Virus record (IMG/VR): IMGVR_UViG_3300016476_000462
Coordinates: 1 to 35,456 of that record
DNA length: 35,456 nt
From: a virus
Taxonomy: Duplodnaviria > Caudoviricetes
Direction: 5' to 3' (one strand)
The notes beneath the pieces are model-generated. The model had not been told where the DNA came from. It saw nothing but the letters and a program-made list of their open reading frames with translations, and did no database searches. Below, one piece after another: positions 1 through 35,456 of this stretch (the first letter of the stretch is position 1; every line of letters starts with the position of its first letter). The position numbers and the translations under genes are program-made.

Positions 1-32
1 AGCAGCGACCGAAGGCATTTTTTATTTGTGTT

Positions 33-335
33 ATGCCACAACAACAAACAATTTTTAATTACAGTCACGCCGCAATTATTGGTGTTGAGGAGTATGTTTT
101 AGCATTGTTTTTAAAGGATAATTTTGGGATAAATAACCATTCTCAAAAACCTTTGTCAGTTGCTAAAATGGCAGCAGAGATTAATTTTTTTACTGCAAAG
201 CAATTAAAACGCATTATTAAAAGCCTTGAAGATCGCGGCTGGATAACTGCTGAAAAAATTAACGCAAAATTATACGATCAATCAAAGGCTTACAAATTTA
301 CAGAAAAGTTCTACCAATTAACAACGCCGTTTTAA
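33..335 (+). CDS. Winged-helix DNA-binding protein
   Basis: SVAKMAAEINFFTAKQLKRIIKSLEDRGWI helix-turn-helix followed by a wing; lies next to the initiator. Confidence 0.65.
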   Translation: MPQQQTIFNYSHAAIIGVEEYVLALFLKDNFGINNHSQKPLSVAKMAAEINFFTAKQLKRIIKSLEDRGWITAEKINAKLYDQSKAYKFTEKFYQLTTPF

Positions 336-1228: not shown

Positions 1229-2035
1229 ATGGAACAAGATTTTGATTTTTCGCAGTATACCCAACATTCAGCCGAGCAGTTGCGCGAGCGGATGACAAAC
1301 CGCCAGCACGTTATCGCACCTATTCCACACGACCCAGAAGCAGCCCTTAGAGAAGCTGAATACTGGAAGCGGGTAAGAAGTACCAAGAAAGCGGAGTTAA
1401 GGCCTTACAGGCCAGATTACACGCCTCAAATGGAATTTGGAGAGGCGCGCACAAAGTTTGGCAAGCTGGTTCAATTAAGGCAAGCAGAACTTGCAATATT
1501 TAAGCGCCGGCAAGACTTTAAAATAACATTCACGCCCGAACAGGCGCAAATAGTGCGGGACCTTTTAAAGTGGTTTATAAACGACGAAAGCGGAAGCCTG
1601 CCAATACATAAAGGCTTTTATTTATACGGAAGTCCTGGCACGTTTAAAACCGAAATAGTGAAGCTGCTTTGTAAGTTCGCGCAGCAAGAACAGCTACCCA
1701 AGGCGCTGCAATTTATGGATATTAGCCAGATCAGCGACGAGCTGCTGGCCAAGGGGCCCGACGTGCTGGAGCAGGTCCGTATGTATGACCGCGTATTTGA
1801 TGAGTGGGGGCGAAAAACACTACCGGTTTCCTACTTCGGCAACAAAGTAGATCCTGCCGAGTGGGCCTTAGAGATGCGCTACAAACGTTTTAAGTCCTTC
1901 GGGCAGATTACTTGCTTTATTAGCAATTTCGACCCGCAGACCCTGGAAAAGAACTTATCGGAAATGGCTTTTGATCGGCTCGGGGAAATGGCGACCTCTG
2001 TGCGGATGCCTGGCGAAAGTAGGCGCAATTCTTAG
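1229..2035 (+). CDS. DnaC/IstB-like AAA+ helicase loader
   Basis: Walker A YLYGSPGTFKT, Walker B-like RVFDEWG, ISN, and C-terminal DRL..M...GESRR; follows the initiator. Confidence 0.85.
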   Translation: MEQDFDFSQYTQHSAEQLRERMTNRQHVIAPIPHDPEAALREAEYWKRVRSTKKAELRPYRPDYTPQMEFGEARTKFGKLVQLRQAELAIFKRRQDFKITFTPEQAQIVRDLLKWFINDESGSLPIHKGFYLYGSPGTFKTEIVKLLCKFAQQEQLPKALQFMDISQISDELLAKGPDVLEQVRMYDRVFDEWGRKTLPVSYFGNKVDPAEWALEMRYKRFKSFGQITCFISNFDPQTLEKNLSEMAFDRLGEMATSVRMPGESRRNS

Positions 2036-2104: not shown

Positions 2105-2147
2105 GCATACAATTAACAAACAACGGTAACGACAAAAGGTATTTATT

Positions 2148-2468
2148 ATGAACACTCAAGTAGAGCTTTCAAAAATTGCAATTAACGAGCAAATAGTTTG
2201 GTCTGGCAAAAATCAAGATTTATTTAATGGCACAATAGTACAGGTGACAGAAAAAGCGGTTAAAGTGGATTATTGCTTTGAAAGTGTATGGTCAAATTGT
2301 GCAATTACGGTTTACAGCTTTTCTACATGGATCCCTAAGTCCGTTTTAATTCACAACGAACTTGGATGCCTAACTGTAAAAAAGTGGTTTATTAATAAGT
2401 TTGATGGATCATCTTCTTACAGGATAAAAAGATACTATCAAAAGGGCGAAGAAAAAATATTTGTTTAA
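2148..2468 (+). CDS. Hypothetical early protein
   Basis: First ORF after the promoter; TEKAV...WIPKS motif common in small phage beta proteins. Confidence 0.7.
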   Translation: MNTQVELSKIAINEQIVWSGKNQDLFNGTIVQVTEKAVKVDYCFESVWSNCAITVYSFSTWIPKSVLIHNELGCLTVKKWFINKFDGSSSYRIKRYYQKGEEKIFV

Positions 2469-4857: not shown

Positions 4858-5262
4858 ATGGTTCACCAAAATACAATACTTGCATACAAAGCCAACGCAG
4901 GCCAGCGCAACCGGCAACTAGACAAAGTTTTTGATTATCTGTTTGCCAGAACAGAAACACAAGGCGTAACAGCTGAAGAAATAGGAGCGGTTTTGAAACT
5001 GCCCAAAAGCACGGTGCACGCACGGCTGAATGATCTTAAAGTTGGCTACTACTACAAAGGCGCGTACTACTTCCTAGAGGAGTCAGGTGTACACAACAAA
5101 GAAAAAGGTAGAGCACTAACGCTTTACTCCTTAACGCTTACCGAACCCGACCCAAAAGAACTGTACAAGGCAGAAATTAAAAGCCTTGAACGAAAGATAC
5201 AAAGGCAGAAAGAGCGGTTAGCTGTTTTAGTTTCTGGCCTTAAATTTGAAAACGAAAGGTAA
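4858..5262 (+). CDS. Winged HTH protein with C-terminal coiled coil
   Basis: ATG at 4858 preferred; TAEEIGAVLKLPKSTVHARLNDL. Confidence 0.75.
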   Translation: MVHQNTILAYKANAGQRNRQLDKVFDYLFARTETQGVTAEEIGAVLKLPKSTVHARLNDLKVGYYYKGAYYFLEESGVHNKEKGRALTLYSLTLTEPDPKELYKAEIKSLERKIQRQKERLAVLVSGLKFENER

Positions 5263-5290
5263 TTTTTCAACATTCAAAAAAATAAAAATC

Positions 5291-5416
5291 ATGGACATTA
5301 AAGCACTTATCTACGCAGTTGCACAGGTTGTTTTTGTGATTGGCCTAGCGGTTAGCATTTACGAGCTATTCAAATTTTTAAACGGCGCATACAAAAATTT
5401 ATTTAAACGTTCGTAA
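5291..5416 (+). CDS. 41-aa single-TM membrane protein (not in the ORF track)
   Basis: MDIKALIYAVAQVVFVIGLAVSIYELFKFLNGAYKNLFKRS; A-rich leader. Confidence 0.65.
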   Translation: MDIKALIYAVAQVVFVIGLAVSIYELFKFLNGAYKNLFKRS

Positions 5417-5425
5417 AATCGCGCG

Positions 5426-5433
5426 TAACTTTG
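5426..5433 (+). promoter_or_regulatory. -7 element immediately before the endolysin start
   Basis: TAACTTTG followed by 4 nt and then ATG. Confidence 0.55.
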
Positions 5434-5437
5434 CGCT

Positions 5438-5884
5438 ATGCACTTAGGTAAATACTTTACATTGGAAGAAATGACGCGCAGCCGCAAAGCGCGCATGTTA
5501 AAAATTGAGAACAACCCGAACGCGGAGCAAATTGAAAATCTGCGCGCCTTGGTTAAACAGCTTGACTGGCTGCGGGAGTACATAGGGCGGCCGATTGTCG
5601 TTACTTCGGGGTATAGGAACCACGCCGTGAACAGGGCCGTAGGCGGTTCGAAGAACAGCGATCACCTTAGAGGCCAGGCGGCAGACATTCACGTTCCCGG
5701 ATGGAGTACTCAAAAGTTATTCGACACCATTCGAAATAGTGGTATAGTTTTTGATCAACTAATACAAGAATTTGACAGTTGGGTACATATCAGCTACGAC
5801 CTCAAGCATAACAAGCGCGAGGCGATGTATGCCTACTACGAAAACGGAGAAAAGAAAATCGGCCCAGAAAAGCCTAAGAAATGA
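5438..5884 (+). CDS. Peptidase M15A family endolysin
   Basis: SGYR, SDHLRGQAADI (HxxxxxxD) and WVHIS zinc motifs. Confidence 0.9.
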   Translation: MHLGKYFTLEEMTRSRKARMLKIENNPNAEQIENLRALVKQLDWLREYIGRPIVVTSGYRNHAVNRAVGGSKNSDHLRGQAADIHVPGWSTQKLFDTIRNSGIVFDQLIQEFDSWVHISYDLKHNKREAMYAYYENGEKKIGPEKPKK

Positions 5885-6060
5885 AGCTATTTACAAAACG
5901 CGCTTGGATAGCAGAGTACGTAAAGCAGCGGAAAGCAAAAGAGCAACCGGACTACGCAGCAGCAGAGCGCGATTTTTGTAGGCTAGTGGAGCAGGGCGTA
6001 ATTTACGAAGTGCAAAAAATAGGCATAGCGCAGCAAGTGAGCGCATACGCAGTGAGATAA
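5881..6060 (+). CDS. 59-aa hypothetical protein (not in the ORF track)
   Basis: ATGA overlap with the endolysin stop; MKLFTKRAWIAEYVKQ...AYAVR. Confidence 0.6.
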   Translation: MKLFTKRAWIAEYVKQRKAKEQPDYAAAERDFCRLVEQGVIYEVQKIGIAQQVSAYAVR

Positions 6061-6740: not shown

Positions 6741-8337
6741 AGACATAGTACCCAACCCGGCAAACCCGCGGGTTATCCGCGATGAGCAGTTCCGCAAGTT
6801 AAAGCAAAGCCTGGCGCAGTTCCCGCAGATGCTTGAAAAGCGGCCTATTGCAGTCACTAAAGAAGGCGGGAAGTATATCGCCCTCGGTGGCAACCAGCGT
6901 TTGCGTGCTTTGCTAGATCTTGAAAAAGAGATTGAGGAAAAGTGGTTCCAGCAAACCTATTATATTACCATAATTGAGGAGCAGATACTTGAAGGCTATT
7001 TTGCAACTGGCATTCCCGTTGTTGATTGTACCGAGCTTACACCGATGCAGCAAAAGCGGTTTATCATCGCTGATAACGTGCCTTTTGGAGAGTGGGACTG
7101 GGAAGGACTGGCAAATGAGTGGGATGTTGAAGAGTTGGCCGACTGGGGGCTAAGTGTGCCGGGTTGGGAGGCAACAGAAGACGAAAGCGAAAAAGCTAGT
7201 GACGAAGAACTAGACGAAAGCGCGGAAAGTGCAGAAGAGATACAAACAGATATAAAGCTAGGCGACCTGTTCGAGATAGGGCCTCACCGCCTTTTGTGTG
7301 GTGATAGTACCAGCGAGGCGGATGTTTCTAGGTTGATGAACGGCCGAAAGGCGGAGCTAGCGCACAATGATCCGCCGTACGGCATGAAAAAAGAAAAGGA
7401 TGGAGTATTGAATGACAATCTAAATTTTTCCGATTTACTAGATTTTAATAAAAAATGGATTAATATTCAATTTAATTATTTAAAAGAAAACGGGTCTTGG
7501 TATTGTTGGGGCATTGACGAACCTTTAATGGATATTTATAGCGAAATATTAAAGCCATTAATTAAGCAACAAAGGGCGACATTCAGAAATTTAATAACGT
7601 GGAACAAAGGGAACGGTCAGGGGCAAATGTCTGAAAATACTAGAATGTACGCAGTGGCAGACGAGAAGTGTCTTTTTGTTATGTGCGGAGTACAGGGTTT
7701 TAACGATAATGCAGATAATTACTTTGAAGGGCTTGAACCAATTAGAAAGTATTTATTAAATCAAAAAGAAGCGAGCAATTTAAGCAATAAAGAAATTCAA
7801 AGCCTTACAAGTACTTCTCATACCCACTATTGGTCTAGGTCGCAATGGCAGTTTCCAACTGAAAAAGATTACAATATATTAAGAAGCTACTGCGAACAAA
7901 ACGGAATAGACGCTTTTAAAAAAGAGTATGACGAACTCAAAAAAGAGTATGACGAACTCAAAAAAGAGTATTATTCTACTCGTGCATATTTTAACAACAC
8001 CCATGAAAACCAAAACAGCGTATGGAGTTTTGACAGAGCTGGACAGGTAGAAAGAGAGCTAACCGGCGGCCACGCAACACCAAAACCGATAGCGCTATGC
8101 TCTCGAGCCATTAAAAGCAGTTGCCCAGAAAAGGGTCTAGTTATTGATTTATTCCTCGGATCCGGTTCCACAATGGTAGCGGCGCAACAGTGCGGGCGCA
8201 CCTGTTACGGCTTAGAGCTGGATCCGAAGTACTGCCAAGTTATCGTCAATCGGATGCAGAAACTTTACCCAAGCCTACAAATAACTAAAAACGGACAACC
8301 CTATGCCACTACCAACACCACTACCGAAGGAGAATAA
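6712..8337 (+). CDS. ParB-like N-domain fused to a beta-class N6A/N4C DNA methyltransferase
   Basis: PNPANPR, GGNQR and IIADN (ParB/Srx); HRLLCGDST, NDPPY, HATPKP, DLFLGSGST. Confidence 0.92.
   Translation: MQTLMRINIKDIVPNPANPRVIRDEQFRKLKQSLAQFPQMLEKRPIAVTKEGGKYIALGGNQRLRALLDLEKEIEEKWFQQTYYITIIEEQILEGYFATGIPVVDCTELTPMQQKRFIIADNVPFGEWDWEGLANEWDVEELADWGLSVPGWEATEDESEKASDEELDESAESAEEIQTDIKLGDLFEIGPHRLLCGDSTSEADVSRLMNGRKAELAHNDPPYGMKKEKDGVLNDNLNFSDLLDFNKKWINIQFNYLKENGSWYCWGIDEPLMDIYSEILKPLIKQQRATFRNLITWNKGNGQGQMSENTRMYAVADEKCLFVMCGVQGFNDNADNYFEGLEPIRKYLLNQKEASNLSNKEIQSLTSTSHTHYWSRSQWQFPTEKDYNILRSYCEQNGIDAFKKEYDELKKEYDELKKEYYSTRAYFNNTHENQNSVWSFDRAGQVERELTGGHATPKPIALCSRAIKSSCPEKGLVIDLFLGSGSTMVAAQQCGRTCYGLELDPKYCQVIVNRMQKLYPSLQITKNGQPYATTNTTTEGE
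7918..7971 (+). repeat. 21-bp in-frame tandem repeat (KKEYDEL x2.5)
   Basis: AAAAAAGAGTATGACGAACTC twice plus a 12-bp partial copy. Confidence 0.95.
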
Positions 8338-10259: not shown

Positions 10260-10297
10260 TAGATATACCTATGGTTTTGTAAAGTGGTTTTTTGTCT

Positions 10298-10346: not shown

Positions 10347-10388
10347 TATAAAAATATTTTTATCTTAAAGCACTGCGGCGTAACTTTG
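10347..10388 (+). promoter_or_regulatory. Palindrome-type promoter
   Basis: TATAAAAATATTTTTATC-N16-TAACTTTG. Confidence 0.8.
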
Positions 10389-10391
10389 CAG

Positions 10392-10462
10392 CAACAACAG
10401 GAGCAAGAAGTGAATATGTGAACAGTACAAAGGTGGCCGCTGCAATAGTCGCCGCCTTTTTT
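10392..10462 (+). ncRNA. Candidate ~70-nt small RNA
   Basis: Bounded by a promoter and the terminator AAAGGTGGC...GCCGCCTTTTTT; no useful ORF; 5' end approximate. Confidence 0.55.
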
Positions 10463-10531
10463 ATTCTTTGCCGTTTCAGCGTAAAAACCGTAAAACGGCG
10501 TAAAATTTGCACACTACTAAATATTTTAAAT

Positions 10532-10972
10532 ATGTACCAGGAAAGATTTGACAAAGCACTCAAACAGCTCACGGAATTAGAGAAAGAAATAAGCAGCATC
10601 TTGCAAGGCGCTGCAAAAGACGGCGAGTTAATCGTAGGCTACCGCAAAGCGGCGCAGATTAAGGCTTTTCTCACCAAGCTAACTAAGGAGCCAAGCACCA
10701 GCAACGCCAAGAAGAGCGCAGGCCCTCCGGCAGACTTGTTTAAAGCTGAAGCACGGAAACTAATAAACGAGCCACGCCGCAACCCAACACCTCCCGACTT
10801 TTTTAGTAAGTTCCGGAACGGCGCACCTACGCCGGTAGCCTTAGAGGTAGAAAAACCCTGGACAGTAGCAGAGCAGGTGCAGCAGGAAGAACCGACCAAG
10901 AAAGCAAAAAAGAAAAAGGACAGCGGACCAGTGTTAGCAACAAACGCGAACGAGGATGGCGGCGATAATTAA
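10532..10972 (+). CDS. Hypothetical protein with a low-complexity charged C-terminus
   Basis: ATG at 10532 preferred because the longer start crosses a terminator. Confidence 0.7.
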   Translation: MYQERFDKALKQLTELEKEISSILQGAAKDGELIVGYRKAAQIKAFLTKLTKEPSTSNAKKSAGPPADLFKAEARKLINEPRRNPTPPDFFSKFRNGAPTPVALEVEKPWTVAEQVQQEEPTKKAKKKKDSGPVLATNANEDGGDN

Positions 10973-13376: not shown

Positions 13377-14660
13377 ATGGCAACAGTAGTAAGTAGACCG
13401 CAAAATACGTGCAGCGCATACGAGCCAGCACGGTACACAGTGGATAGTATTAATACAGCGTCATTAATTGAAAAAATGATAGTCAATGTTCGAACCGCCA
13501 GCGGGGGCGGTGGTACAATTATTGGCACGCTGTACCGCGATTGGACACGCCGCACCGGCACGGGGCCTGCTTACGTCTATAGATTCGAGGTAGATATAGC
13601 AGGCATTTTGCAAACGATTGTAGGAAGTTCGGCAGCGGCAAGGTACCGCGCCTTCTTGGCTCCAGGGTTCGCAAACCGTGATTGTGTAGACGCTTACCAG
13701 ACTTTTTTCATGGAATTTAAGTTCCTGTTCCGTGACCCTGCTACTAATTTGCTGGCAGATTTAGGCGATGTCGAATACGTAAACATAACTACAACGGTCT
13801 TTAATGTAATTAGGCCGAACAAGGAAATATTTGATACTTTCCAAAATAGTTTATACAGAACTACTGGAGCTTTCCCGAATAACCAAAAATTATACAACTT
13901 TAACACGGGCGCACAAGTACCGATTCGGTACAGTGACACATACAGCCTATGTTTTAATACAAACGGTTTTTGGTTCGTTCGAATTGTGGAGCTTAAAGCA
14001 AACGGCACTATACACACTTCCTACCTAGAACTCCCTTCTACTATTTACAACTTTTCTAATAAAGTCTTTGCTGTTCAAGTTGGGCCTAATTATTTAAAGT
14101 CTTTACCCTCTACAGACTTTGACGCAAACGTGCCGCCGCAATTTGATGCATCAACAGTTAGTTATAAGATGGGCCTTACAAATGCAGTAAGAACACTACT
14201 AACCGAAGAGCTGGAGTTTGTTGTGATGCCGGAATGCGGCGGAGGCCTTCGCCTGGCCTGGGTAAACCAACGCGGAGGTGTAGATATGTACACCTTTGAC
14301 GCTAAGATAGTCGAAGGCGTAGAAGGTGCGTCTGAAATTGGTATCCGGCCGAATGTTTGGGCAAGTGCTGCACTTGTGCCGACGCCGGAAAGCCGTGGCA
14401 GCTTTAAGGTAAGCGCAGAAAGGAATGAGTACTTTGAAATCGAAACACGGGTGTTACGGCCTAATTTGGCCGAATTCGTAAGCCAAGTACTAACCAGCCC
14501 GGAGGTTTATATTTACGATACTGCAATGAGCGCTACTAACCCTTTTCGCTCTGTAATTATTTCAGATGGCCAAATAATCGAAAGCGACAGCGACGAGATA
14601 GGAATGATTTTGAAGTTCAAAGTTTACCCAGCTAACCAAACGCCAACCCACGTACAATAG
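13377..14660 (+). CDS. Tail structural protein (distal-tail-like)
   Basis: RLAWVNQRGGVDMYTF and LTSPEVY motifs; lies upstream of the tip protein. Confidence 0.6.
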   Translation: MATVVSRPQNTCSAYEPARYTVDSINTASLIEKMIVNVRTASGGGGTIIGTLYRDWTRRTGTGPAYVYRFEVDIAGILQTIVGSSAAARYRAFLAPGFANRDCVDAYQTFFMEFKFLFRDPATNLLADLGDVEYVNITTTVFNVIRPNKEIFDTFQNSLYRTTGAFPNNQKLYNFNTGAQVPIRYSDTYSLCFNTNGFWFVRIVELKANGTIHTSYLELPSTIYNFSNKVFAVQVGPNYLKSLPSTDFDANVPPQFDASTVSYKMGLTNAVRTLLTEELEFVVMPECGGGLRLAWVNQRGGVDMYTFDAKIVEGVEGASEIGIRPNVWASAALVPTPESRGSFKVSAERNEYFEIETRVLRPNLAEFVSQVLTSPEVYIYDTAMSATNPFRSVIISDGQIIESDSDEIGMILKFKVYPANQTPTHVQ

Positions 14661-14661
14661 G

Positions 14662-16743
14662 ATGCCAAGAACGGAGATATACATAGATAACCAATTAGTC
14701 AATCAAATAGAAGGCTACCAGCCTATGTCGCTAACTTACCGCATTGACGCGCAAGAAAGCCCTGGTACCATTTCGGGCTACTTCGCCAAGCGGCCAATCC
14801 GCATACCTGCCGACAAGCAAGCGCGGGTAATATTTGGGGATTGGATAGATGGTGACCAGAAAGCTGGAGCAGTAAACCGCAAGCCATGCCGCATTGACGT
14901 GGATGGTGTTTCCGTTTTCCGAGGCGTCGCTCAACTTGACACGGTTTTCGCAGGTAACGGCAGTTTTCGCCGCCGTTCGGAGCAGTTTGAGCTGGTATTA
15001 ACCGCAAACAATGCGGCTTGGTTCGGGCAAATGAAAACCATACTTGTCCGTGATATTGTAGAAACCTACATACCAGCTGGAACTATTTGGAACCAAGCGT
15101 TTGTACTTGCAAATGACAACAAGAGCCCTTCTACTTCTGCCTGGTGCTTATTTTTGGGCAAAGTTAAAGATTGGGCGGGGCCTAATTACATAGACTACAC
15201 CGATCTAACCTTTGGGGTATTTATTACGCAGCTAATAACAAAAGCGTTTGCGCTTGCAGGTTATGCAGTAGATAGTACATGGTTCACACACAATGAAGTG
15301 CAGCGCTATATCTTGCCGCTGCCATCTAGGCCGTTCCCGGTCGAGTTTGGCGCGGCTTGGAATATGCGTGTCAAAGACATAGCAAATCCGCAAATAATCG
15401 CGCCGGCGGGAGTATGGACAACTATTTTGCTGGTAGGCGATCAGGAATACTATGACCCAAGTGTACTTTACGACTTTGCAACAGGGGAATACACGGTGCA
15501 GTACACGGGCGAGTACGCTATAACTTACGGAGGTCAAAATGTCCTAGCGGATTACTTTTATGTTACAAATGGTACGGTTTTCACTACTGCTATCACAGGG
15601 CCAGCAGGCGAAGTTGTGCAAGCCACGGAAACACTATTTTTGAGCGCAGGAGATAAGGTGGTGCTACGCTTTTTAGGAGGTGCGCCCAATAGGCTGCCCG
15701 GTGTTTTTACTTTTATAATTCAACCTACATTTGAGTTTAAAGCGGGGTACGAAATAAATTTGGGCGTACAAACGCCGGACACTTGGACCATGGCCGACCT
15801 TATTCTAGGTTTTTCCCGCGCGTTCAACCTGCAATTTTTCACGAACGTAGAAACCGGAAGAGTTAGGATTGAGCCGCAGGATGGGTATTACATGGGAACG
15901 ACCTACAGCGAAGGGTTTTACCAGGACACTACCCGTTTGGATTTTACAGCAAAAATCGACCTGGCTAAAAAGGCAGAACACAAAGCAGTAAACGAACAAG
16001 CGGCACGGCTGGCATTAAAATGGGCGACCGATAGCGGCGACGAAAACGCGGAACAAGTAGATCGCGATTCTATGCTACCCAGCTTTGCAGGCGCATACAA
16101 CTACCCGGCCGATAGGTTCCAAGAAGGAGAAGAGGTGGTAACAGTACCGTTTTTCTTCAAGTCTATAATGTACAACGCCTTTGAGGTAAAGCATCCAACG
16201 TATCAAACAGGGAAGACGCCGCTTTTACCTATTCTCCAAAAAACATTAGTAGGAGGCGATCCAGTAACGGCTGGCGAAGACACAGGGCCAAGAATTTTGT
16301 ACTATGCAGGCAGGCGGGGCGGCCTAGATGGCTGGATAAACCCTAACGGAGGCACTCCTTACGACTATCCAGCAGCTTGGTTTTTTAATTACAACGATGC
16401 AGCAGGCAACAGCCCAAGTCTTTCCTTTAGCGATGAAACGCCGAACGCTTACGGCTCTCCAACTCTTGGCCTTATGGCCCGGTACTGGCTGCAACGTATA
16501 GGGCGCGTTGAATGGGGCGAAACGGTAAAGGAGTGGATATTCTGGAGAACAAACGACATTTTGAACCTAGATTTTAGAAAGAAGCTGTTAATTGATGGCC
16601 GTACCTATATTTTAAAGGAAATTGATGGCTATTTACCAGGGTACACAGGTAGCCGCAAAACAGTACTGGAGGCAGACTACATTCTACCAACAACGCGCAG
16701 CAGCGCAATAGACAACACTAACATACAGGGGCTACTAAAATAA
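14662..16743 (+). CDS. Tail tip/hub protein
   Basis: EIYID N-terminus, FNLQFF..VRIEP, IDGRTYILKEIDGY; 693 aa next to the tape measure. Confidence 0.6.
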   Translation: MPRTEIYIDNQLVNQIEGYQPMSLTYRIDAQESPGTISGYFAKRPIRIPADKQARVIFGDWIDGDQKAGAVNRKPCRIDVDGVSVFRGVAQLDTVFAGNGSFRRRSEQFELVLTANNAAWFGQMKTILVRDIVETYIPAGTIWNQAFVLANDNKSPSTSAWCLFLGKVKDWAGPNYIDYTDLTFGVFITQLITKAFALAGYAVDSTWFTHNEVQRYILPLPSRPFPVEFGAAWNMRVKDIANPQIIAPAGVWTTILLVGDQEYYDPSVLYDFATGEYTVQYTGEYAITYGGQNVLADYFYVTNGTVFTTAITGPAGEVVQATETLFLSAGDKVVLRFLGGAPNRLPGVFTFIIQPTFEFKAGYEINLGVQTPDTWTMADLILGFSRAFNLQFFTNVETGRVRIEPQDGYYMGTTYSEGFYQDTTRLDFTAKIDLAKKAEHKAVNEQAARLALKWATDSGDENAEQVDRDSMLPSFAGAYNYPADRFQEGEEVVTVPFFFKSIMYNAFEVKHPTYQTGKTPLLPILQKTLVGGDPVTAGEDTGPRILYYAGRRGGLDGWINPNGGTPYDYPAAWFFNYNDAAGNSPSLSFSDETPNAYGSPTLGLMARYWLQRIGRVEWGETVKEWIFWRTNDILNLDFRKKLLIDGRTYILKEIDGYLPGYTGSRKTVLEADYILPTTRSSAIDNTNIQGLLK

Positions 16744-19965: not shown

Positions 19966-20007
19966 TATAAAAATATTTTTATAATCCATTCGGGCGGCTT
20001 ACCTTTG
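19966..20007 (+). promoter_or_regulatory. Palindrome-type promoter
   Basis: TATAAAAATATTTTTATA-N16-TACCTTTG. Confidence 0.85.
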
Positions 20008-20052
20008 CCTAACAATTAACAATTAACGCTAACAATTTAAAAATTTCAGATC

Positions 20053-20562
20053 ATGAACAACACACAATTAGAGTACGCAGAAGGAATACGTAATTTGCTT
20101 TCTATTAACCCAGACCCAATTCTCGAAGGCTCTTGGACACCGCTCCAGATTGCTAAAGATTACGCCGAAGTCGGCGAAGACTGCGGCCTTACACTAGACG
20201 AGGCCGTGGAAATTATCGAACGCGAACTTGCGTCTTATTTGGACGAGCAGGGGTTTGTTGAGATGCCTAAGCGCAAAAAAACAGCAGAGCAGCAAATTAA
20301 GATCGCCGAAACACGGGACAGGCTAAACGAGCGCGCAAATGAGCAAGCGCGGATACTACTTGGTAAATACAAGTGGACACCGCCACAGCGTCGCATGCTT
20401 GAGCAGCAGGCGGAAAAAGGGTATATTATTTCAACGCATGGCGATATGTCAAAGGCCTTCGGACGCTTTCAGGGTACAAACCCTGACGATATTGCCACGT
20501 ATCGAATCATGTGGCTAGGCAAAAAAGTTCCAGCAAAAAAACGCCTTAATTTTACTTGCTAG
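20053..20562 (+). CDS. Hypothetical early protein
   Basis: First ORF after the promoter; A-rich leader. Confidence 0.75.
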   Translation: MNNTQLEYAEGIRNLLSINPDPILEGSWTPLQIAKDYAEVGEDCGLTLDEAVEIIERELASYLDEQGFVEMPKRKKTAEQQIKIAETRDRLNERANEQARILLGKYKWTPPQRRMLEQQAEKGYIISTHGDMSKAFGRFQGTNPDDIATYRIMWLGKKVPAKKRLNFTC

Positions 20563-29429: not shown

Positions 29430-31610
29430 ATGGAGCAATTAATTAGGTATTTTATTTGGTTTTTACTGCTTTTTGCAGGCTTTAATTTGCAGGCGCAAAA
29501 CAATACTGTGTACGGGGCCGGTATAAGCTACACTAACGGCGTACCTAGCTGGGTACCCAATCCGAGAACTTCGCGGGCAGCCGTGGACACCGTTACCGGC
29601 CGCTGGTACCACTTTAACACTCCAGGCGGATGGCAGTGGATAGGTAACACGGTTGAAGAGATTGCAGGATGTGCCGCACCTGCGTACACGCCCGACAAAG
29701 GCGACAGTCGGCTGGTGATTAACAACTGCGTCAAGCCGCAGGTTTATTGGTACGATGGTGCGGTATGGAAGTGGATAAACGAGGGTACTACCTACTTCGC
29801 AGGCGAAGGCATCCGCATTGAGAACGACACGATAATTTTAGACTCTCTTTATGTTTTAAGATTCAGAACAGGCGATACGACGGACCTAAACGCGGGCGCG
29901 GTTAGTTGGAACGCAGCCGAACAGACACTTGACGTTGTTATCAACCAAGGCGCGGTAACAGGTCAAATGTTCCAAGAGGTTTTATACTTCACCAAAAACC
30001 AAACAGGAGTGCAAATTAATGATGGTACGGTTGTAATGGCAGCGGGCACAACGGGCAACTCTGGGAAAATCCTAATTGCTCCAGCCATTGCGGATGGTTC
30101 GGTAAATAGTGAGTATATTTTGGGCCTTGCTACTCAGGATCTAGCCAACGGAGCCGAGGGAATGGTTACGCATTTCGGCAAAGTTCGCGGCATACAAACC
30201 AATGGCGCAAATTATGGTGAAACTTGGGTCGATGGCGACGTTCTTTATTGCAGCGCCTCAACACCGGGACACCTTACAAAGGTACTCCCAACTGCTCCAA
30301 ACCTTAAAGTACCTATCGCGATTGTAATTCATGCGCACCCTTCAAATGGTACTTTGTTTGTTCGTCCTTCGCACTTTCCAGACCTTGCGCAAATTAACGA
30401 CGTGCAACTAAGTAGCCCGACGAACGGTCAAGTATTAACTTATAACTCCACGCTTTCAAGGTGGGAGAATGCCACACCAGCCAACCAACTACAAACACTT
30501 TCAACCGATGGCAGCGCGGGCAATATCAGCATAAGCAGCGGTAACACCATAACGCTAAACGTAAACGATGCGGATGCAAGCGCTACAAATGAATTACAAA
30601 CGTTATCGGTCGCAGCAAACACCGCAACGTTAAGCAATTCGGGCGGATCGGTCACAATCGCAGGCGCTGGTATTAATACCGTGGGCACTGCTGGTACTAC
30701 TATAACGGTCACAGGTACGGAAGTAGATGGAAGTACTACCAACGAGCTACAAACACTTTCAACAGGTACAAACACGCTCACACTCTCAAATGGTGGCGGT
30801 ACTGTTACGGTGGACACAGATCCGGCTTCGGATGTAACTGGAAGCGGAGCAAATGGACAAATAGCATATTGGCAAACAAGCCAAATACAATTTGGAGACC
30901 CCGGCCTTACATTTAGTGCTGTAAATGATAGAGTAGCGATTGGGCCTTTAGGTTCTTCGACATATCCTTTGGAAGTCTTTAGAACAGGAGAAACGGGTGA
31001 AAGTTTTGGTTTAAATATATCAATGGCAAATCCTGGAATTAGGCAAGAGGTTAAAAGGAATACGGGCGGGGCGGCATTTGCAATCTCTGAAGCAAGAGGC
31101 TTAAAACTATCTGATAATTCAACATCTCTATTGAGCTATATTGGAGTTTTTGCAGATTTTACTACTTCTCCTCCAACTTCTGGCTATTTATATTTATCAT
31201 CTAGCCCTACAGTTGCTTTTAATAATAATGCGCTAAGAATATACCCTTCAAAAAATGCTACAATAGAAGGCAGTTTTAGAATAGGCGACCATAACGCACC
31301 ATCCGCCCGCCTCCACGTCGTAGGCTCCGGAACAAGCTCATCCACTTGGACAGCCCAATTCCACAACAGCGCAGGCAACAATAACGCGCTAATGATTCGG
31401 GATGATGGAAGGGTTGCAATGGGGACGAACGCGCCTAATGCATCCGCAATACTAACAGTAGCAAGTACAACGGGCGGCATTTTATTCCCACGAATGACCA
31501 CAACCGAACGCAACGCAATCGCCACACCTGCCGATGGGCTGGTAATTTATAACACAACAGACAACAAGCTCCAAGTTCGCGCTGCTAGCGCGTGGGTAGA
31601 TCTTCATTAA
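29430..31610 (+). CDS. Tail fibre/adhesin-like protein with an N-terminal signal peptide
   Basis: T/G/S-rich; NELQTLS repeats; C-terminal ASAIL..STTGGILFPRMTT.ERNAI.TPADGLVIYN; begins MEQLIRYFIWFLLLFAGFNLQAQ. Confidence 0.75.
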   Translation: MEQLIRYFIWFLLLFAGFNLQAQNNTVYGAGISYTNGVPSWVPNPRTSRAAVDTVTGRWYHFNTPGGWQWIGNTVEEIAGCAAPAYTPDKGDSRLVINNCVKPQVYWYDGAVWKWINEGTTYFAGEGIRIENDTIILDSLYVLRFRTGDTTDLNAGAVSWNAAEQTLDVVINQGAVTGQMFQEVLYFTKNQTGVQINDGTVVMAAGTTGNSGKILIAPAIADGSVNSEYILGLATQDLANGAEGMVTHFGKVRGIQTNGANYGETWVDGDVLYCSASTPGHLTKVLPTAPNLKVPIAIVIHAHPSNGTLFVRPSHFPDLAQINDVQLSSPTNGQVLTYNSTLSRWENATPANQLQTLSTDGSAGNISISSGNTITLNVNDADASATNELQTLSVAANTATLSNSGGSVTIAGAGINTVGTAGTTITVTGTEVDGSTTNELQTLSTGTNTLTLSNGGGTVTVDTDPASDVTGSGANGQIAYWQTSQIQFGDPGLTFSAVNDRVAIGPLGSSTYPLEVFRTGETGESFGLNISMANPGIRQEVKRNTGGAAFAISEARGLKLSDNSTSLLSYIGVFADFTTSPPTSGYLYLSSSPTVAFNNNALRIYPSKNATIEGSFRIGDHNAPSARLHVVGSGTSSSTWTAQFHNSAGNNNALMIRDDGRVAMGTNAPNASAILTVASTTGGILFPRMTTTERNAIATPADGLVIYNTTDNKLQVRAASAWVDLH

Positions 31611-31624
31611 AAAACAACAATACA

Positions 31625-32239
31625 ATGAAAAATACAATTTTTATCATTTGCATACTCGTAGCCCTGCAAGCAAAAGGGCAGGTAATTGATACCACATTCA
31701 TAACAGCCAACGAAACAGGGCTATATTTTACTCACCTTATAATTGACGAAACCGGAAAGCGGACACAAACAGACGTGCCGATTCGGGACACTATGCAGCA
31801 AGTAGCAGCCATTAAGGCACTCACAACTCAAGAAATAGGAAGGCGCTGCAATGACTGGGCAATAATTAGCGCTTACACTGCCGAAATTGGGCGTATGTTA
31901 CGCGATGGAAACACGATTGAAACGCAGTATGGAGTACCACTATTTGACACTACAGGCATAAGCCAAATATTAGGAACCGATTGGAATTTGCGAGGGTATG
32001 CAGCTCAAACAAAGGTATATTTTAGGGTGTCAGCTACAAACGAAAAGGTATTAATACCACGCCTTCAATACAGTTTTACCAAGGCGGCTGGATCCTGGAA
32101 GCGTGCGTATTTTTCACCCGGCTATCTCCGTTTAACGGAGTTCGACGCGGATGGCTTTATCGAGTTCTTTTTCAAGGATGGAAGCTGGCAAAGTGTTGGC
32201 CGGACTGCAAGGTTAGTACCTAATGTTGTAAGGCGATGA
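31625..32239 (+). CDS. Predicted secreted protein
   Basis: ATG at 31625; MKNTIFIICILVALQAKGQ signal peptide. Confidence 0.75.
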   Translation: MKNTIFIICILVALQAKGQVIDTTFITANETGLYFTHLIIDETGKRTQTDVPIRDTMQQVAAIKALTTQEIGRRCNDWAIISAYTAEIGRMLRDGNTIETQYGVPLFDTTGISQILGTDWNLRGYAAQTKVYFRVSATNEKVLIPRLQYSFTKAAGSWKRAYFSPGYLRLTEFDADGFIEFFFKDGSWQSVGRTARLVPNVVRR

Positions 32240-32358
32240 TCTATACTATACTAGAGGCCTTAGTTATGGGCGCAGGTTTTATGTTTGGCCTTGTTTTGGG
32301 CCAATACCTAAGCGAAAAAGTAGAGCAAATTAAAAAAGTTTTCAAGCGCAAAAGATAG
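32236..32358 (+). CDS. 40-aa single-TM protein (not in the ORF track)
   Basis: MIYTILEALVMGAGFMFGLVLGQYLSEKVEQIKKVFKRKR; ATGA overlap. Confidence 0.65.
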   Translation: MIYTILEALVMGAGFMFGLVLGQYLSEKVEQIKKVFKRKR

Positions 32359-32417
32359 CGCCTTAGATTTGTAGCGCGAAAGATAATTGTTTAGCGTAAA
32401 GAGTGTTCATGATTGGT

Positions 32418-32449
32418 ACGGCCTAGGTGTAATACCTGGGCCGTTTTTT
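32418..32449 (+). terminator. Intrinsic terminator of the head/fibre operon
   Basis: ACGGCCTAGGT-GTAAT-ACCTGGGCCGT TTTTT. Confidence 0.9.
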
Positions 32450-32487: not shown

Positions 32488-32529
32488 TATAAAAATATTT
32501 TTATAGTATTAAAAATGGTATTAACTTTG
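32488..32529 (+). promoter_or_regulatory. Palindrome-type promoter
   Basis: TATAAAAATATTTTTATA-N16-TAACTTTG. Confidence 0.85.
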
Positions 32530-32563
32530 CCCTACGTTAAACACATTTAAACATTATTCAATC

Positions 32564-32848
32564 ATGAACAACACAAAAAAACAGCTCTTGACAGAGCTAA
32601 TGTACGTCTTTCGGGAAAACCCGAAGGCACTAGAGCGCTTAAACGCCGCGATGCAGGAGCCGCAACGCAAGACCACCGCGCCAATACAGGGCGCTATCAA
32701 AAACTCGTTTTGGTGGACAGTGGAACACATTTGGTGGCAGCTGTTCACAAACAACGAAGAGAAACAGCGGCTAGCCGTGGAATACCTGCGCCGCAAGCGG
32801 TACCAATTAGGCGACAACTACCCGCCGCGCTTACTTAAATCAAGATAA
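32564..32848 (+). CDS. Hypothetical early protein
   Basis: First ORF after the promoter. Confidence 0.7.
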   Translation: MNNTKKQLLTELMYVFRENPKALERLNAAMQEPQRKTTAPIQGAIKNSFWWTVEHIWWQLFTNNEEKQRLAVEYLRRKRYQLGDNYPPRLLKSR

Positions 32849-34083: not shown

Positions 34084-34143
34084 TATCTGCCTATTAACAG
34101 CCGCCATAACTTATTATTTCACACATTAAACAATTTAACAATC

Positions 34144-34515
34144 ATGGTTTACTTACGCTTATCAGACAAAGTCTATCTTTATGCAAAACCAGGCGACGAA
34201 GCGCCGGCAGTGGTCAGTCAAGAATTAGGCTTCAGATCAGAAATAGACGCATACGCTGCTTTAATTAATTCAGAAGCCAATGGCTTTTTAATTGAAAGAG
34301 CGTCTATAATTTTAAACGAATTACTAGAGAACGACAAGGGCTGGAGCCCTAAAGAAATAGTAGATACAGCAGAAGAATGGCTGGAGTTATTAGCAGCTCA
34401 TAAGTCAGCAGAAAAACTACTAAAAAAGCGCTTAAAGGATCAACTAAACGAAGCCAACAATCCGCTGCCAGGCGCGAACCTTGAATATTACGAACATCTA
34501 GCCACAAGTAAATAA
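34144..34515 (+). CDS. Hypothetical protein
   Basis: A-rich leader; TAATG coupling to the next gene. Confidence 0.7.
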   Translation: MVYLRLSDKVYLYAKPGDEAPAVVSQELGFRSEIDAYAALINSEANGFLIERASIILNELLENDKGWSPKEIVDTAEEWLELLAAHKSAEKLLKKRLKDQLNEANNPLPGANLEYYEHLATSK

Positions 34516-34847
34516 TGCTGAACCGCGAAACTATAGACTTCCCGGCGGCTATCCGCTATGATAGCCGCCTAGCGCCGGGCGCCCGTTTGTTAGCTGCAGA
34601 ACTGCTTGCTGAAAGCCGGCAAGCGCCCAGCGGCATTGTAACAATTACAAACCAGGATCTTTTTAATAGATTTGGGTTTGGCCCTGTTACGCTTATGCGC
34701 TACTTTAACCAGCTCGAGGTAATTGGCTTAATTGAGCGGCAGTTTACAGGAAGAAAAAGCGCTAAAGCAGCTCGCAAGATTATTGTAAACACTTCACTTT
34801 TAACCGACTGGAAGGTCGAGTATTTTATAAACCATGGAAGAGAATAA
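34515..34847 (+). CDS. Winged-helix protein (initiator N-domain-like)
   Basis: PAAIRYDSRLAPGARLL...TNQDL...LEVIGLI. Confidence 0.75.
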   Translation: MLNRETIDFPAAIRYDSRLAPGARLLAAELLAESRQAPSGIVTITNQDLFNRFGFGPVTLMRYFNQLEVIGLIERQFTGRKSAKAARKIIVNTSLLTDWKVEYFINHGRE

Positions 34848-35118
34848 AGATTTTTCGCTATTAAATTTCTTTGGACCTGAAGCCAATTTAAGAGTTATGA
34901 AATTTAAAGGCGAAGGCTGTAACGCGGTTCTTGTTATTGAGGACTTGAACGAGTTAAATTTAATGCATATTTTAATAACAGGCATCGGTCGTTATTATTA
35001 CGCAGTTCGCTCAAATAGTAAAAAAATGAAAGTTGAACAATTTAAAGAAAGCGTAAAAGCGCTAATAGATGCGGAGTTTAACGCTGTGGACAATGAATAC
35101 TTCAATGGCAGAAAGTAA
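34834..35118 (+). CDS. Hypothetical protein
   Basis: Overlaps both neighbouring genes. Confidence 0.6.
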   Translation: MEENKDFSLLNFFGPEANLRVMKFKGEGCNAVLVIEDLNELNLMHILITGIGRYYYAVRSNSKKMKVEQFKESVKALIDAEFNAVDNEYFNGRK

Positions 35119-35456
35119 AGACTTAATCGTTCCGGGCAGTATCTTGTACGATGCTGCCCTAGCGCCCGGCCAGCGCCTTATGTATGCGAAGTTGGTACAA
35201 CTATGCGGTGAAGATGCCGAAGGCCGCACGCGGGTAACAAATATACAACTGGCACGAATGTTCTGTATTTCGATCGACACCGCTTGCGCCTGGGTGCAGA
35301 CTTTTGCGGTAGTTGGTGCGATCAATGTAGAATACACAAAAGTAGATAACCGCCGAATCATAACTATAAACCCGAACTACCAGCCCTCTAAAGGTGCGGT
35401 AATTTATGACAAACGGGAACTGGATACCATGGTAGGCCGCAGGCTTTCAAAGACTG
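35105..35456 (+). CDS. Winged-helix protein, paralog of 34515..34847; open at the window end (not in the ORF track)
   Basis: MAESKDLIVPGSILYDAALAPGQRLMYAKL...TNIQLARMFCIS. Confidence 0.75.
   Translation, partial: MAESKDLIVPGSILYDAALAPGQRLMYAKLVQLCGEDAEGRTRVTNIQLARMFCISIDTACAWVQTFAVVGAINVEYTKVDNRRIITINPNYQPSKGAVIYDKRELDTMVGRRLSKT

What the first reader, a model, noticed from the sequence alone, without database searches (positions are those of the whole stretch)
32384..32449. Late-operon 3'UTR is antisense to the start regions of four early genes: candidate late-to-early silencing sRNA
Seen: the stretch just before the late terminator holds two seeds. Seed B, GAGTGTTCATGATTG (32401-32415), is complementary to 32559-32570 CAATCATGAACA (12 bp perfect), 2145-2157 ATTATGAACACTC (13 bp, one G-U), 20050-20059 ATCATGAACA (10 bp) and 34139-34146 CAATCATG (8 bp). 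These sites cover the AUG of the first gene in all three early islands, plus gene 34144. Seed A, TAATTGTTTAGCGTA (32384-32398), matches leaders of three of the same genes: 32533-32543 TACGTTAAACA (one G-U), 20026-20037 ACGCTAACAATT (one bulge) and 34127-34135 TAAACAATT. Inference: a terminator-protected 3'UTR RNA accumulates late and blocks A-rich, SD-less initiation sites. Caveats: the targets are low-complexity, and the two seeds are not colinear with their targets.
Basis: partly seen in the sequence, partly recalled or inferred. Interest (0 to 1): 0.8.

Follow-up and report, generated by a model that had tools for sequence, protein, structure and literature searches.

The report
Phage sRNA mirroring early-gene starts
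An uncultured phage that likely infects Bacteroidota carries, right after its tail genes, a promoter-like motif, a 42-base stretch and a terminator hairpin; the stretch is complementary to the start regions of at least six of its own early genes, and related phages with different start regions carry a correspondingly different stretch, so it is likely a small RNA that would turn early protein synthesis down, although no transcript has been shown.

Summary
All quoted matches are real and exceed chance. In a whole-genome pairing scan the five best hits of 32377-32417 are early-gene start regions (34144, 1229, 32564, 339, 2148); 0 of 300 shuffles did as well. That motif predicts a stand-alone ~74-nt RNA (32376-32449) rather than only a late 3'UTR. 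Relatives with ~81% capsid identity carry a different seed that matches their own, different leaders; swapping RNA and genome abolishes the signal. Distant relatives (24-28%) share the architecture: 55 of 56 loci found without requiring the promoter's TA have it; pairing there passed shuffles in 5 of 12 genomes, plus a fourth sequence type. No Rfam match, no integrase. Best reading (0.62): a trans-acting sRNA occluding early translation starts, like Bacteroides GibS but aimed at the phage's own early and replication genes. Expression, timing ('late') and repression are untested.

The parts
32236..32358 (+). 40-aa hydrophobic ORF with basic C-terminus, last gene of the late (head/tail) module; a small hydrophobic ORF precedes the unit in clades B and C too
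   Evidence: sequence; no PHROG or Pfam hit
32364..32371 (+). Bacteroidota sigma-A type -7 promoter motif TAGATTTG (G at -10 departs from the refined TAHHTTTG consensus); predicted start site 32376
   Evidence: unchanged in L025 and in contigs of 4 runs; same position in clades B, C, D; spacing rule from PMC6847099 section 14
32376..32449 (+). predicted ~74-nt sRNA: 42-nt weakly folded G/U-rich 5' part plus terminator
   Evidence: no Rfam match; transcript not shown
32384..32398 (+). seed A (anti-leader; pairs with AACAATT / ACGCTAA-type words)
   Evidence: no substitution in 4 runs
32396..32417 (+). seed B (anti-AUG; core 32401-32415, extends to 32396-32417 at the 1229 site)
   Evidence: a 4-nt insertion after 32398 between the seeds is the only change within 32374-32416 in relatives
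32418..32449 (+). intrinsic terminator, 12-pair stem and U-run; stem changes in relatives keep the hairpin
34139..34169 (+). target: AUG of gene 34144 plus early coding region; both seeds pair colinearly here (rank 1)
34127..34135 (+). seed-A site in leader of 34144
313..327 (+). weaker target upstream of the O-like replication initiator gene (339)
   Evidence: rank 4; rank 10
2145..2157 (+). target: AUG of gene 2148, first gene after promoter motif 2097-2104
20012..20037 (+). seed-A sites in leader of 20053 (20026-20037 conserved in G001 and G002)
20049..20059 (+). target: AUG of gene 20053, first gene after promoter motif 20000-20007
32533..32543 (+). seed-A site at the predicted 5' end of the 32564 transcript
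32558..32570 (+). target: AUG of gene 32564, first gene after promoter motif 32522-32529

Best explanation
Positions 32364-32449 form a promoter-motif-to-terminator unit that likely makes a ~74-nt trans-acting small RNA, whose open 5' part is complementary to the start regions of the phage's own early and replication genes and would pair there to block ribosome loading. Shown: the motif, the terminator, the complementarity above chance, its early-gene bias, and the matched change of seed and leaders between clades. Inferred: transcription from 32376 by the host's main sigma factor; stability given by the terminator; repression of translation, because the sites cover or abut the AUG in A-rich leaders without evident SD sequence; and a role as a negative-feedback timer that damps early and replication proteins (first genes of three early operons, O-like initiator, DnaC-like loader) as the RNA builds up. 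Late read-through ends at the same terminator and may add copies, but in clade B that long form is predicted to hide its seed.
For: Top five genome-wide hits are early starts; 0 of 300 shuffles match, 0 of 200 with blind gene calls. Clade B (capsid ~81%): different seed, top hits at its own leaders, 7 of 7 (0 of 200 shuffles) in G003 and 6 of 7 (1 of 200) in G006; 23 pairs with the 20053-slot leader of G004 (-20.5). Swaps give 1-2 of 7, like shuffles. Words are clade-private: ATCATGAAC 3 of 3 sense-strand copies in window start windows and none in G003; ACATTCA 6 of 8 in G003 start windows versus 1 of 8 in the window. Target sites differ by bulges and G-U-compatible changes, as RNA duplexes allow. 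Same architecture in clades C and D; 55 of 56 loci found by a pattern lacking TA have TAnnTTTG, with variable nn (109 of 586 TTTG words in these loci have TA, the 55 included). G046 (type D): three best hits are starts, best-3 energy beaten by 0 of 87 shuffles. No substitution in 32374-32416 in contigs of 4 runs, while 19 of 20 listed substitution rows lie at 32417 or beyond. Precedent for mechanism: GibS represses SD-less Bacteroides mRNAs through a single-stranded 5' seed at the start codon (PMC7366714, passages).
Against: No transcript, start site or repression is shown; the served runs hold only contigs and cannot show expression. The window's motif has G at -10, nearly absent in F. johnsoniae promoters (PMC6847099), although G at -9 occurs in 14 of the 56 clade-C loci. 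Hybrids are modest (-8 to -14 kcal/mol with accessibility). Clade C passed the top-7 shuffle test at 5% in only 5 of 12 genomes (G051, G057, G059, G062, G065; G060 borderline 6 of 108; G034, G031, G042, G037, G033, G061 not), and its subtypes cross-react. No counterpart was detected in G014 and G015, and only a weak one in G007-type phages (3 of 7, 6 of 150 shuffles in G009; 1 of 7, 95 of 150 in G007). In most window leaders the A and B sites are not colinear with the RNA. The early/late labels were set by hand after the first hits were seen. The energy model is my own approximation, not IntaRNA.
Confidence: 0.62

Rival explanations
1. One reading: the active RNA is the 3' end of the late head/tail transcript (whole or processed), so silencing is tied to late transcription.
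For: The late module runs without a called terminator into this hairpin; the window's motif is off the refined consensus; a G007-type counterpart sits at an operon end and lacks the motif in G012.
Against: TAnnTTTG is kept at this place in clades A-D with free nn. Adding upstream sequence raises the seed-opening cost from 0.7-0.8 to 3.3-12.5 kcal/mol in clade B and from 1.2 to 3.7-7.6 for seed B of the window at 80-130 nt upstream (but 1.1-3.2 at 20-40 nt).
Confidence: 0.12
2. The RNA acts on nascent early transcripts, causing premature termination or decay (as P4 CI RNA does), not ribosome occlusion.
For: Many clade-B sites begin at the predicted +1 of early transcripts; seed-A sites of the window also lie at 5' ends. 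P4 CI precedent (PMC4825925, passage).
Against: Several sites are internal to operons with no promoter motif nearby (1229, 339, 34144) and are fixed on the start codon; seed B covers the AUG itself.
Confidence: 0.1
3. It is an immunity or carrier-state RNA: expressed from a resident non-integrated phage, it holds replication and early genes off and excludes superinfecting kin.
For: Host-type promoter motif; targets include initiator and loader; all genes lie on one strand, so there is no divergent CI-like gene; clade-private seeds resemble immunity types.
Against: No tyrosine integrase in the window or in 5 relatives, no resolvase in the 5 (4 of them at least 90% complete); no partition gene among PHROG hits; no close prophage among GTDB genomes.
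Confidence: 0.08
4. No RNA function: an inverted copy of a leader, a protein-binding DNA repeat, or a chance match between a G/U-rich terminator flank and A/C-rich leaders.
For: Both partners are low in complexity; other terminator flanks in these phages are G/U-rich and reach 2-3 of 7.
Against: Composition-matched shuffles and 10 other terminator flanks do worse; complementarity is kept through complete sequence turnover in four types; sites vary in spacing and by G-U-type changes, unlike operators; a protein decoy would be in sense, not antisense, orientation.
Confidence: 0.06
5. It is a type I antitoxin for the upstream 40-aa membrane peptide, or the start of a small minus-strand gene.
For: A small hydrophobic ORF is adjacent in clades A, B and C; the minus strand reads a 15-codon ORF with a good start context in the window.
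Against: The best match to the peptide mRNA is inside its coding part (-9.4, rank 8) and is absent from the top 22 hits in clade B; the minus-strand ORF is frameshifted by the 4-nt insertion in L025 and in 4 runs and is not kept in clade B.
Confidence: 0.02

Closest known systems
GibS sRNA of Bacteroides thetaiotaomicron (PMC7366714; passages read)
   Same: Own promoter and intrinsic terminator, single-stranded 5' seed, pairing over the start codon of SD-less mRNAs in a phylum without evident Hfq.
   Different: GibS is a 145-nt host RNA for metabolic mRNAs with experimental support. This one is phage-encoded, 58-85 nt, aimed at the phage's own early genes, rewritten per clade, and untested. 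No sequence relation was found in Rfam.
CI RNA of satellite phage P4 and c4 RNA of phage P1 (PMC4825925 and PMC8546580; passages)
   Same: Small phage RNA acting in trans by short pairings to hold down the phage's own lytic or replication functions.
   Different: CI and c4 are processed from a longer transcript and serve lysogeny; CI pairs with two sites flanking itself and c4 represses Ant synthesis. Here the sites are spread over at least six start regions across the genome, the unit has its own promoter motif, no integrase was found, and there is no Rfam match.
sRNA1 and sRNA2 of lytic Pseudomonas phage PAK_P3 (PMC4933390; passages)
   Same: Intergenic ~100-nt RNAs of a lytic phage proposed as trans-acting; sRNA1 has one 11-nt match in an early gene.
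   Different: There expression is shown but targets and function are open; here a multi-target, co-varying target set is evident but expression is not shown.
VpdS (VP882), PreS (lambda), 24B_1, sar, OOP, aQ (review PMC12197685; abstract and parts 1-2 of 6 read)
   Same: Phage small RNAs that tune the phage cycle by base pairing.
   Different: As described in the parts read, these are cis-antisense or single-target RNAs, or Hfq-dependent RNAs acting on host mRNAs; none is described as pairing with the starts of a whole early gene set.

Membership tests
trans-encoded base-pairing sRNA (GibS-like) | own promoter | tested here: inconclusive
   Motif present and conserved in position; start site not measured; G at -10 in the window.
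trans-encoded base-pairing sRNA (GibS-like) | intrinsic terminator | tested here: met
   12-pair stem plus U-run, kept through stem changes.
trans-encoded base-pairing sRNA (GibS-like) | single-stranded seed | tested here: met
   5' part folds weaker than shuffles (z +1.2); opening cost 1.2 kcal/mol for seed B, 3.6 for seed A; prediction only.
trans-encoded base-pairing sRNA (GibS-like) | imperfect complementarity to start regions of unlinked mRNAs, above chance | tested here: met
trans-encoded base-pairing sRNA (GibS-like) | no conserved reading frame | tested here: met
   4-nt insertion in relatives; minus-strand ORF not kept.
trans-encoded base-pairing sRNA (GibS-like) | discrete transcript and measured repression | not testable with these tools
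   Only contigs are served for the holding runs.
3'UTR-derived (processed) sRNA | shares terminator with the upstream mRNA | tested here: met
3'UTR-derived (processed) sRNA | released from the mRNA by cleavage rather than from its own start | tested here: inconclusive
   A conserved promoter motif and seed burial in long forms argue against; ends not measured.
P4 CI / P1 c4 immunity RNAs | match to the curated RNA family | tested here: not met
   No Rfam hit at the locus up to E 5; none in 9 related loci up to E 1.
P4 CI / P1 c4 immunity RNAs | temperate phage with lysogeny functions | tested here: inconclusive
   No integrase or resolvase found; a non-integrating state is not excluded; the window lacks some sequence at its ends.
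P4 CI RNA | targets flank the RNA within its own primary transcript | tested here: not met
   Targets are dispersed over five regions of the genome, beyond the terminator.
type I toxin-antitoxin antitoxin | extended pairing with the 5' region of the adjacent small hydrophobic gene | tested here: not met
   Best match lies in the coding part, rank 8; not among clade-B top hits.

The most novel reading that the evidence does not exclude
A wide family of integrase-less Bacteroidota phages, which seem to run early and late genes from the same host-type promoters and show no divergent repressor gene, use one tiny RNA as the master off-switch of their early programme. The seed and a private tag in several leaders are rewritten together in each clade, giving clade-specific, RNA-coded control of DNA replication and possibly exclusion of kin.
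Probability: 0.4. Interest if true: 0.86.

Novelty: new variant of a known kind. Interest (0 to 1): 0.74.

Why it matters
How phages without their own polymerase or sigma factor switch early genes off is mostly explained by proteins, and the few RNAs known from lytic phages have no proven function (PMC4933390, passages). This unit gives a short, fully specified test: one ~74-nt RNA, named target sites, and natural cognate and non-cognate pairs from four sequence types for swap experiments. If true it shows multi-target RNA control of a phage's own early genes in a phylum without SD pairing or evident Hfq, explains the repeated words in these phages' leaders, and offers a compact repressor scaffold for Bacteroidota genetics.

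Tried and rejected
Rfam: no relevant hit for the window (two chance hits elsewhere) or for relatives. Single-protein search with the 308-aa neighbour found no viral relatives and none in GTDB genomes; the capsid profile found one GTDB contig, in a Kordia MAG at 37%, too distant to name the host. An exact pattern of both seeds found 0 viral contigs. A first ranking by unconstrained duplex energy put long, gappy hybrids high and was replaced by a seed-and-accessibility model. Expression: the two read-laying runs returned only contigs, covering late and early genes alike, so they say nothing on transcription. A fixed 42-nt window before terminators scored the clade-B units only 2 of 7 because it included promoter DNA that pairs with the seed. 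G014's G/U-rich late-operon end has no promoter motif and its three best hits are not starts. G014 and G015 gave no promoter-terminator unit with start-biased hits. I first took G003 gene 7856 for the DnaC-like gene; it is not, it only occupies the same slot. The minus-strand 15-codon ORF and a type I antitoxin role were rejected. Fetched but not shuffle-tested: G040, G043, G050, G056, G063, G064, G066. No structure or complex prediction was run, as the claim does not rest on proteins. Host mRNA targets could not be tested because the host is unknown.

Full report
Setting. The window is the whole 35,456-base record G000, a linear virus contig of a tailed phage: terminase, portal, head protease, tape measure, holin, endolysin, O-like initiator (339) and DnaC-like loader (1229) by PHROG. 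All 53 automatically called genes lie on the + strand. Operons start at TAnnTTTG motifs, the -7 element of the Bacteroidota main sigma factor (PMC6847099, passages and section 14), and starts are A-rich without evident SD sequence (by inspection). A Bacteroidota host is therefore inferred; the only GTDB hit of the capsid family is a 37% match in a Kordia MAG. No tyrosine integrase was found in the window or in 5 relatives, and no resolvase in the 5, four of them at least 90% complete. The window's last ORF runs off the end, so some sequence is missing.

Observation. Every string and coordinate of the finding is correct. To test chance I wrote a seed-and-extend hybrid scan (nearest-neighbour energies, 6-pair seed, loops up to 4, accessibility penalty on both RNAs) and ran the unpaired part over the whole sense strand. 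The five best hits overlap start regions of 34144, 1229, 32564, 339 and 2148; rank 6 is inside a coding region, rank 7 covers AUG 5291, rank 8 lies inside the 40-aa ORF, and 20053 comes at ranks 12 and 14. Start windows are 8.7% of the genome. Of 300 dinucleotide shuffles none put 5 of its top 7 hits in start windows (mean 0.95). With automatic gene calls (44 of 56 starts agree with my manual list) the count is 6 of 7, reached by 0 of 200 shuffles. Start windows with E <= -8 kcal/mol: 6 of 30 early versus 1 of 26 late (4 of 300 shuffles reach 6; early labels set by hand after the first scan). Among 11 intergenic stretches before terminators in this genome, this one scores 5, the next 3.

TAGATTTG at 32364-32371, five bases after the stop of a 40-aa hydrophobic ORF, predicts a start at 32376 and a ~74-nt RNA ending at the terminator. 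Its G at -10 is off the refined TAHHTTTG consensus. Three further sites exist: 1202-1225 before the DnaC-like gene (21 pairs; best hit, -17.7, in relative G002), 313-327 before the initiator (weaker) and 5287-5299. At 34144 both seeds pair colinearly across the AUG; at the other leaders the A site lies upstream of the B site, so one RNA molecule would use one seed.

Close relatives (clade A). L025 and contigs from 4 runs of 4 studies show no substitution in 32374-32416; the only change is a 4-nt insertion between the seeds, while 19 of 20 listed substitution rows lie at 32417 or beyond, including stem changes that keep the hairpin. The insertion breaks the 15-codon minus-strand ORF. In G001 and G002 the 20053-slot gene starts with other codons but pairing is kept with one bulge. 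On G002 the top-7 count was not significant (3; 24 of 188 shuffles), the best-3 energy was (0 of 188).

Clade B (capsid 81-82%). At the same place G003, G005, G006, L026 and L028 have a small hydrophobic ORF, TATCTTTG or TACATTTG, a 26-27-nt open stretch of different sequence, and a different terminator. Its best hits are its own leaders, among them the slots of 32564, 2148, 20053 and 34144: 7 of 7 in G003 (0 of 200 shuffles; best-3 energy 16 of 200) and 6 of 7 in G006 (1 of 200) with automatic calls; 23 pairs with a G004 leader. Swapping RNA and genome gives 1-2 of 7, as shuffles do. Marker words are clade-private. Read-through forms bury the clade-B seed (3.3-12.5 versus 0.7-0.8 kcal/mol), which favours the promoter-started form; in the window the effect is smaller and depends on length.

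Distant relatives. A screen of 191 loci for promoter-terminator units (54 distinct units, 18 printed as G/U-rich and weakly folded) showed the same architecture in phages with 24-28% capsid identity (clade C): small hydrophobic ORF, TAnnTTTG, ~40 open bases, terminator, next operon. A pattern that required only TTTG gave 56 viral loci; 55 have TA at -12/-11 with variable nn, 25 distinct variants; two of the 56 look unrelated. Clade C shares a GAGTGTT...CAT core with seed B. Pairing to own leaders reaches 28-30 pairs, but passed the top-7 shuffle test at 5% in 5 of 12 genomes only (G051 7 of 194, G057 1 of 138, G059 0 of 150, G062 0 of 134, G065 0 of 150; G060 6 of 108; G034, G031, G042, G037, G033, G061 not). 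Some misses are leaders whose start the caller missed or partial genomes, but I did not rescore them. A fourth type in G046 has its three best hits at starts (2 of 87; best-3 0 of 87). In the RNA-by-genome matrix the cognate type is best for G000, G003 and G046; clade C subtypes cross-react. Phages at 50-55% capsid identity are mixed: none detected in G014 and G015; a weaker element at the end of an early operon in G007-type phages, matching TCACCACT at -20 to -22 of early starts (G009 3 of 7, 6 of 150 shuffles; G007 1 of 7, not significant; promoter motif absent in G012).

Mechanism. Most likely (0.62) a stand-alone sRNA that covers the start codon or the A-rich leader of first genes of early operons and of the replication genes, lowering their translation as it accumulates. 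Antisense orientation excludes a protein decoy; variable spacing and G-U-type changes fit RNA duplexes better than operators. Repression, timing and the promoter's activity are inferred. Rivals: late read-through as source (0.12), action on nascent transcripts (0.10), immunity or carrier state (0.08), no RNA function (0.06), antitoxin or minus-strand gene (0.02).

Known relatives and novelty. It works like GibS (PMC7366714, passages) and plays a part like P4 CI and P1 c4 (PMC4825925, PMC8546580, passages), but fails membership of the latter and has no Rfam match. Nine full-text searches (listings only, except the papers named) showed no report of a phage sRNA pairing with the starts of its own early gene set; the library lacks most subscription papers. 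Supplements not seen that may bear: the 38 uncharacterised phage sRNAs in Table S1 of PMC12197685 (abstract and parts 1-2 of 6 read) and the six putative non-coding RNAs of phage phi38:1 in PMC5335546 (two passages read). Earlier AI notes of this scan describe similar anti-leader RNAs in other phage genomes; they are unchecked and are not support, but suggest the theme recurs. Verdict: real feature, new variant of a known kind, interest 0.74.

Noticed in passing
window 32488-32506, 19966-19984, 10351-10369: A near-palindromic TATAAAAATATTTTTATA-type box lies about 20-40 bases upstream of the strong TAnnTTTG motifs at 32522, 20000 and 10381 (shorter form before 2097); possibly an upstream promoter element or a protein-binding site.
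   Followed up: no
window 32346-32357 and 32374-32385: An 11-of-12 direct repeat flanks the sRNA promoter motif and is unchanged in L025; it could be a regulator site that sets the RNA's timing.
   Followed up: no
G007:19577(-), G009:772(-), G012:10837(-) and 10225(-), G015:12469(+), G018:8112(-): Promoter-to-terminator RNAs of 85-100 nt whose first hairpin loop is complementary to the terminator loop, with matched changes between genomes (kissing-loop candidate); no Rfam hit at gathering score; not start-directed.
   Followed up: partly
G003 ~16456-16485; window 10260-10297; G006 ~14660-14690: The 3' flank of the terminase gene is also G/U-rich before a terminator; in G003 its two best hits are starts 27212 and 9936, in the window 3 of 7 top hits are starts. 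A possible second, weaker anti-start element; no shuffles run.
   Followed up: partly
G007 ~7840-7867(-), G009 ~31400-31448(-), G012 ~1500-1550(-): End of the early operon holds AGTGGTGAA before a terminator, antisense to TCACCACT at -20 to -22 of early starts.
   Followed up: partly
window 5426-5440: Endolysin gene 5438 begins 4 bases after a TAnnTTTG motif, i.e. a predicted leaderless mRNA; the same in G002, G003 and G006.
   Followed up: no
window 10418-10972 and 5246-5416: Likely true starts are 10532 and 5291 rather than the first GTG/TTG (automatic caller; G003 homologue aligns from residue 40).
   Followed up: partly
window 1-32 and 35105-35456: The contig starts inside a long hairpin whose other arm is present in G003 (~5815-5910), and ends in an open ORF, so some sequence is missing at the junction.
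   Followed up: no
window 33-335, 339-1226, 34515-34847: Three ORFs hit replication-initiator profiles (HTH-type N-termini); relatives swap the gene after the initiator and the gene in the 34144 slot while keeping the pairing site.
   Followed up: partly
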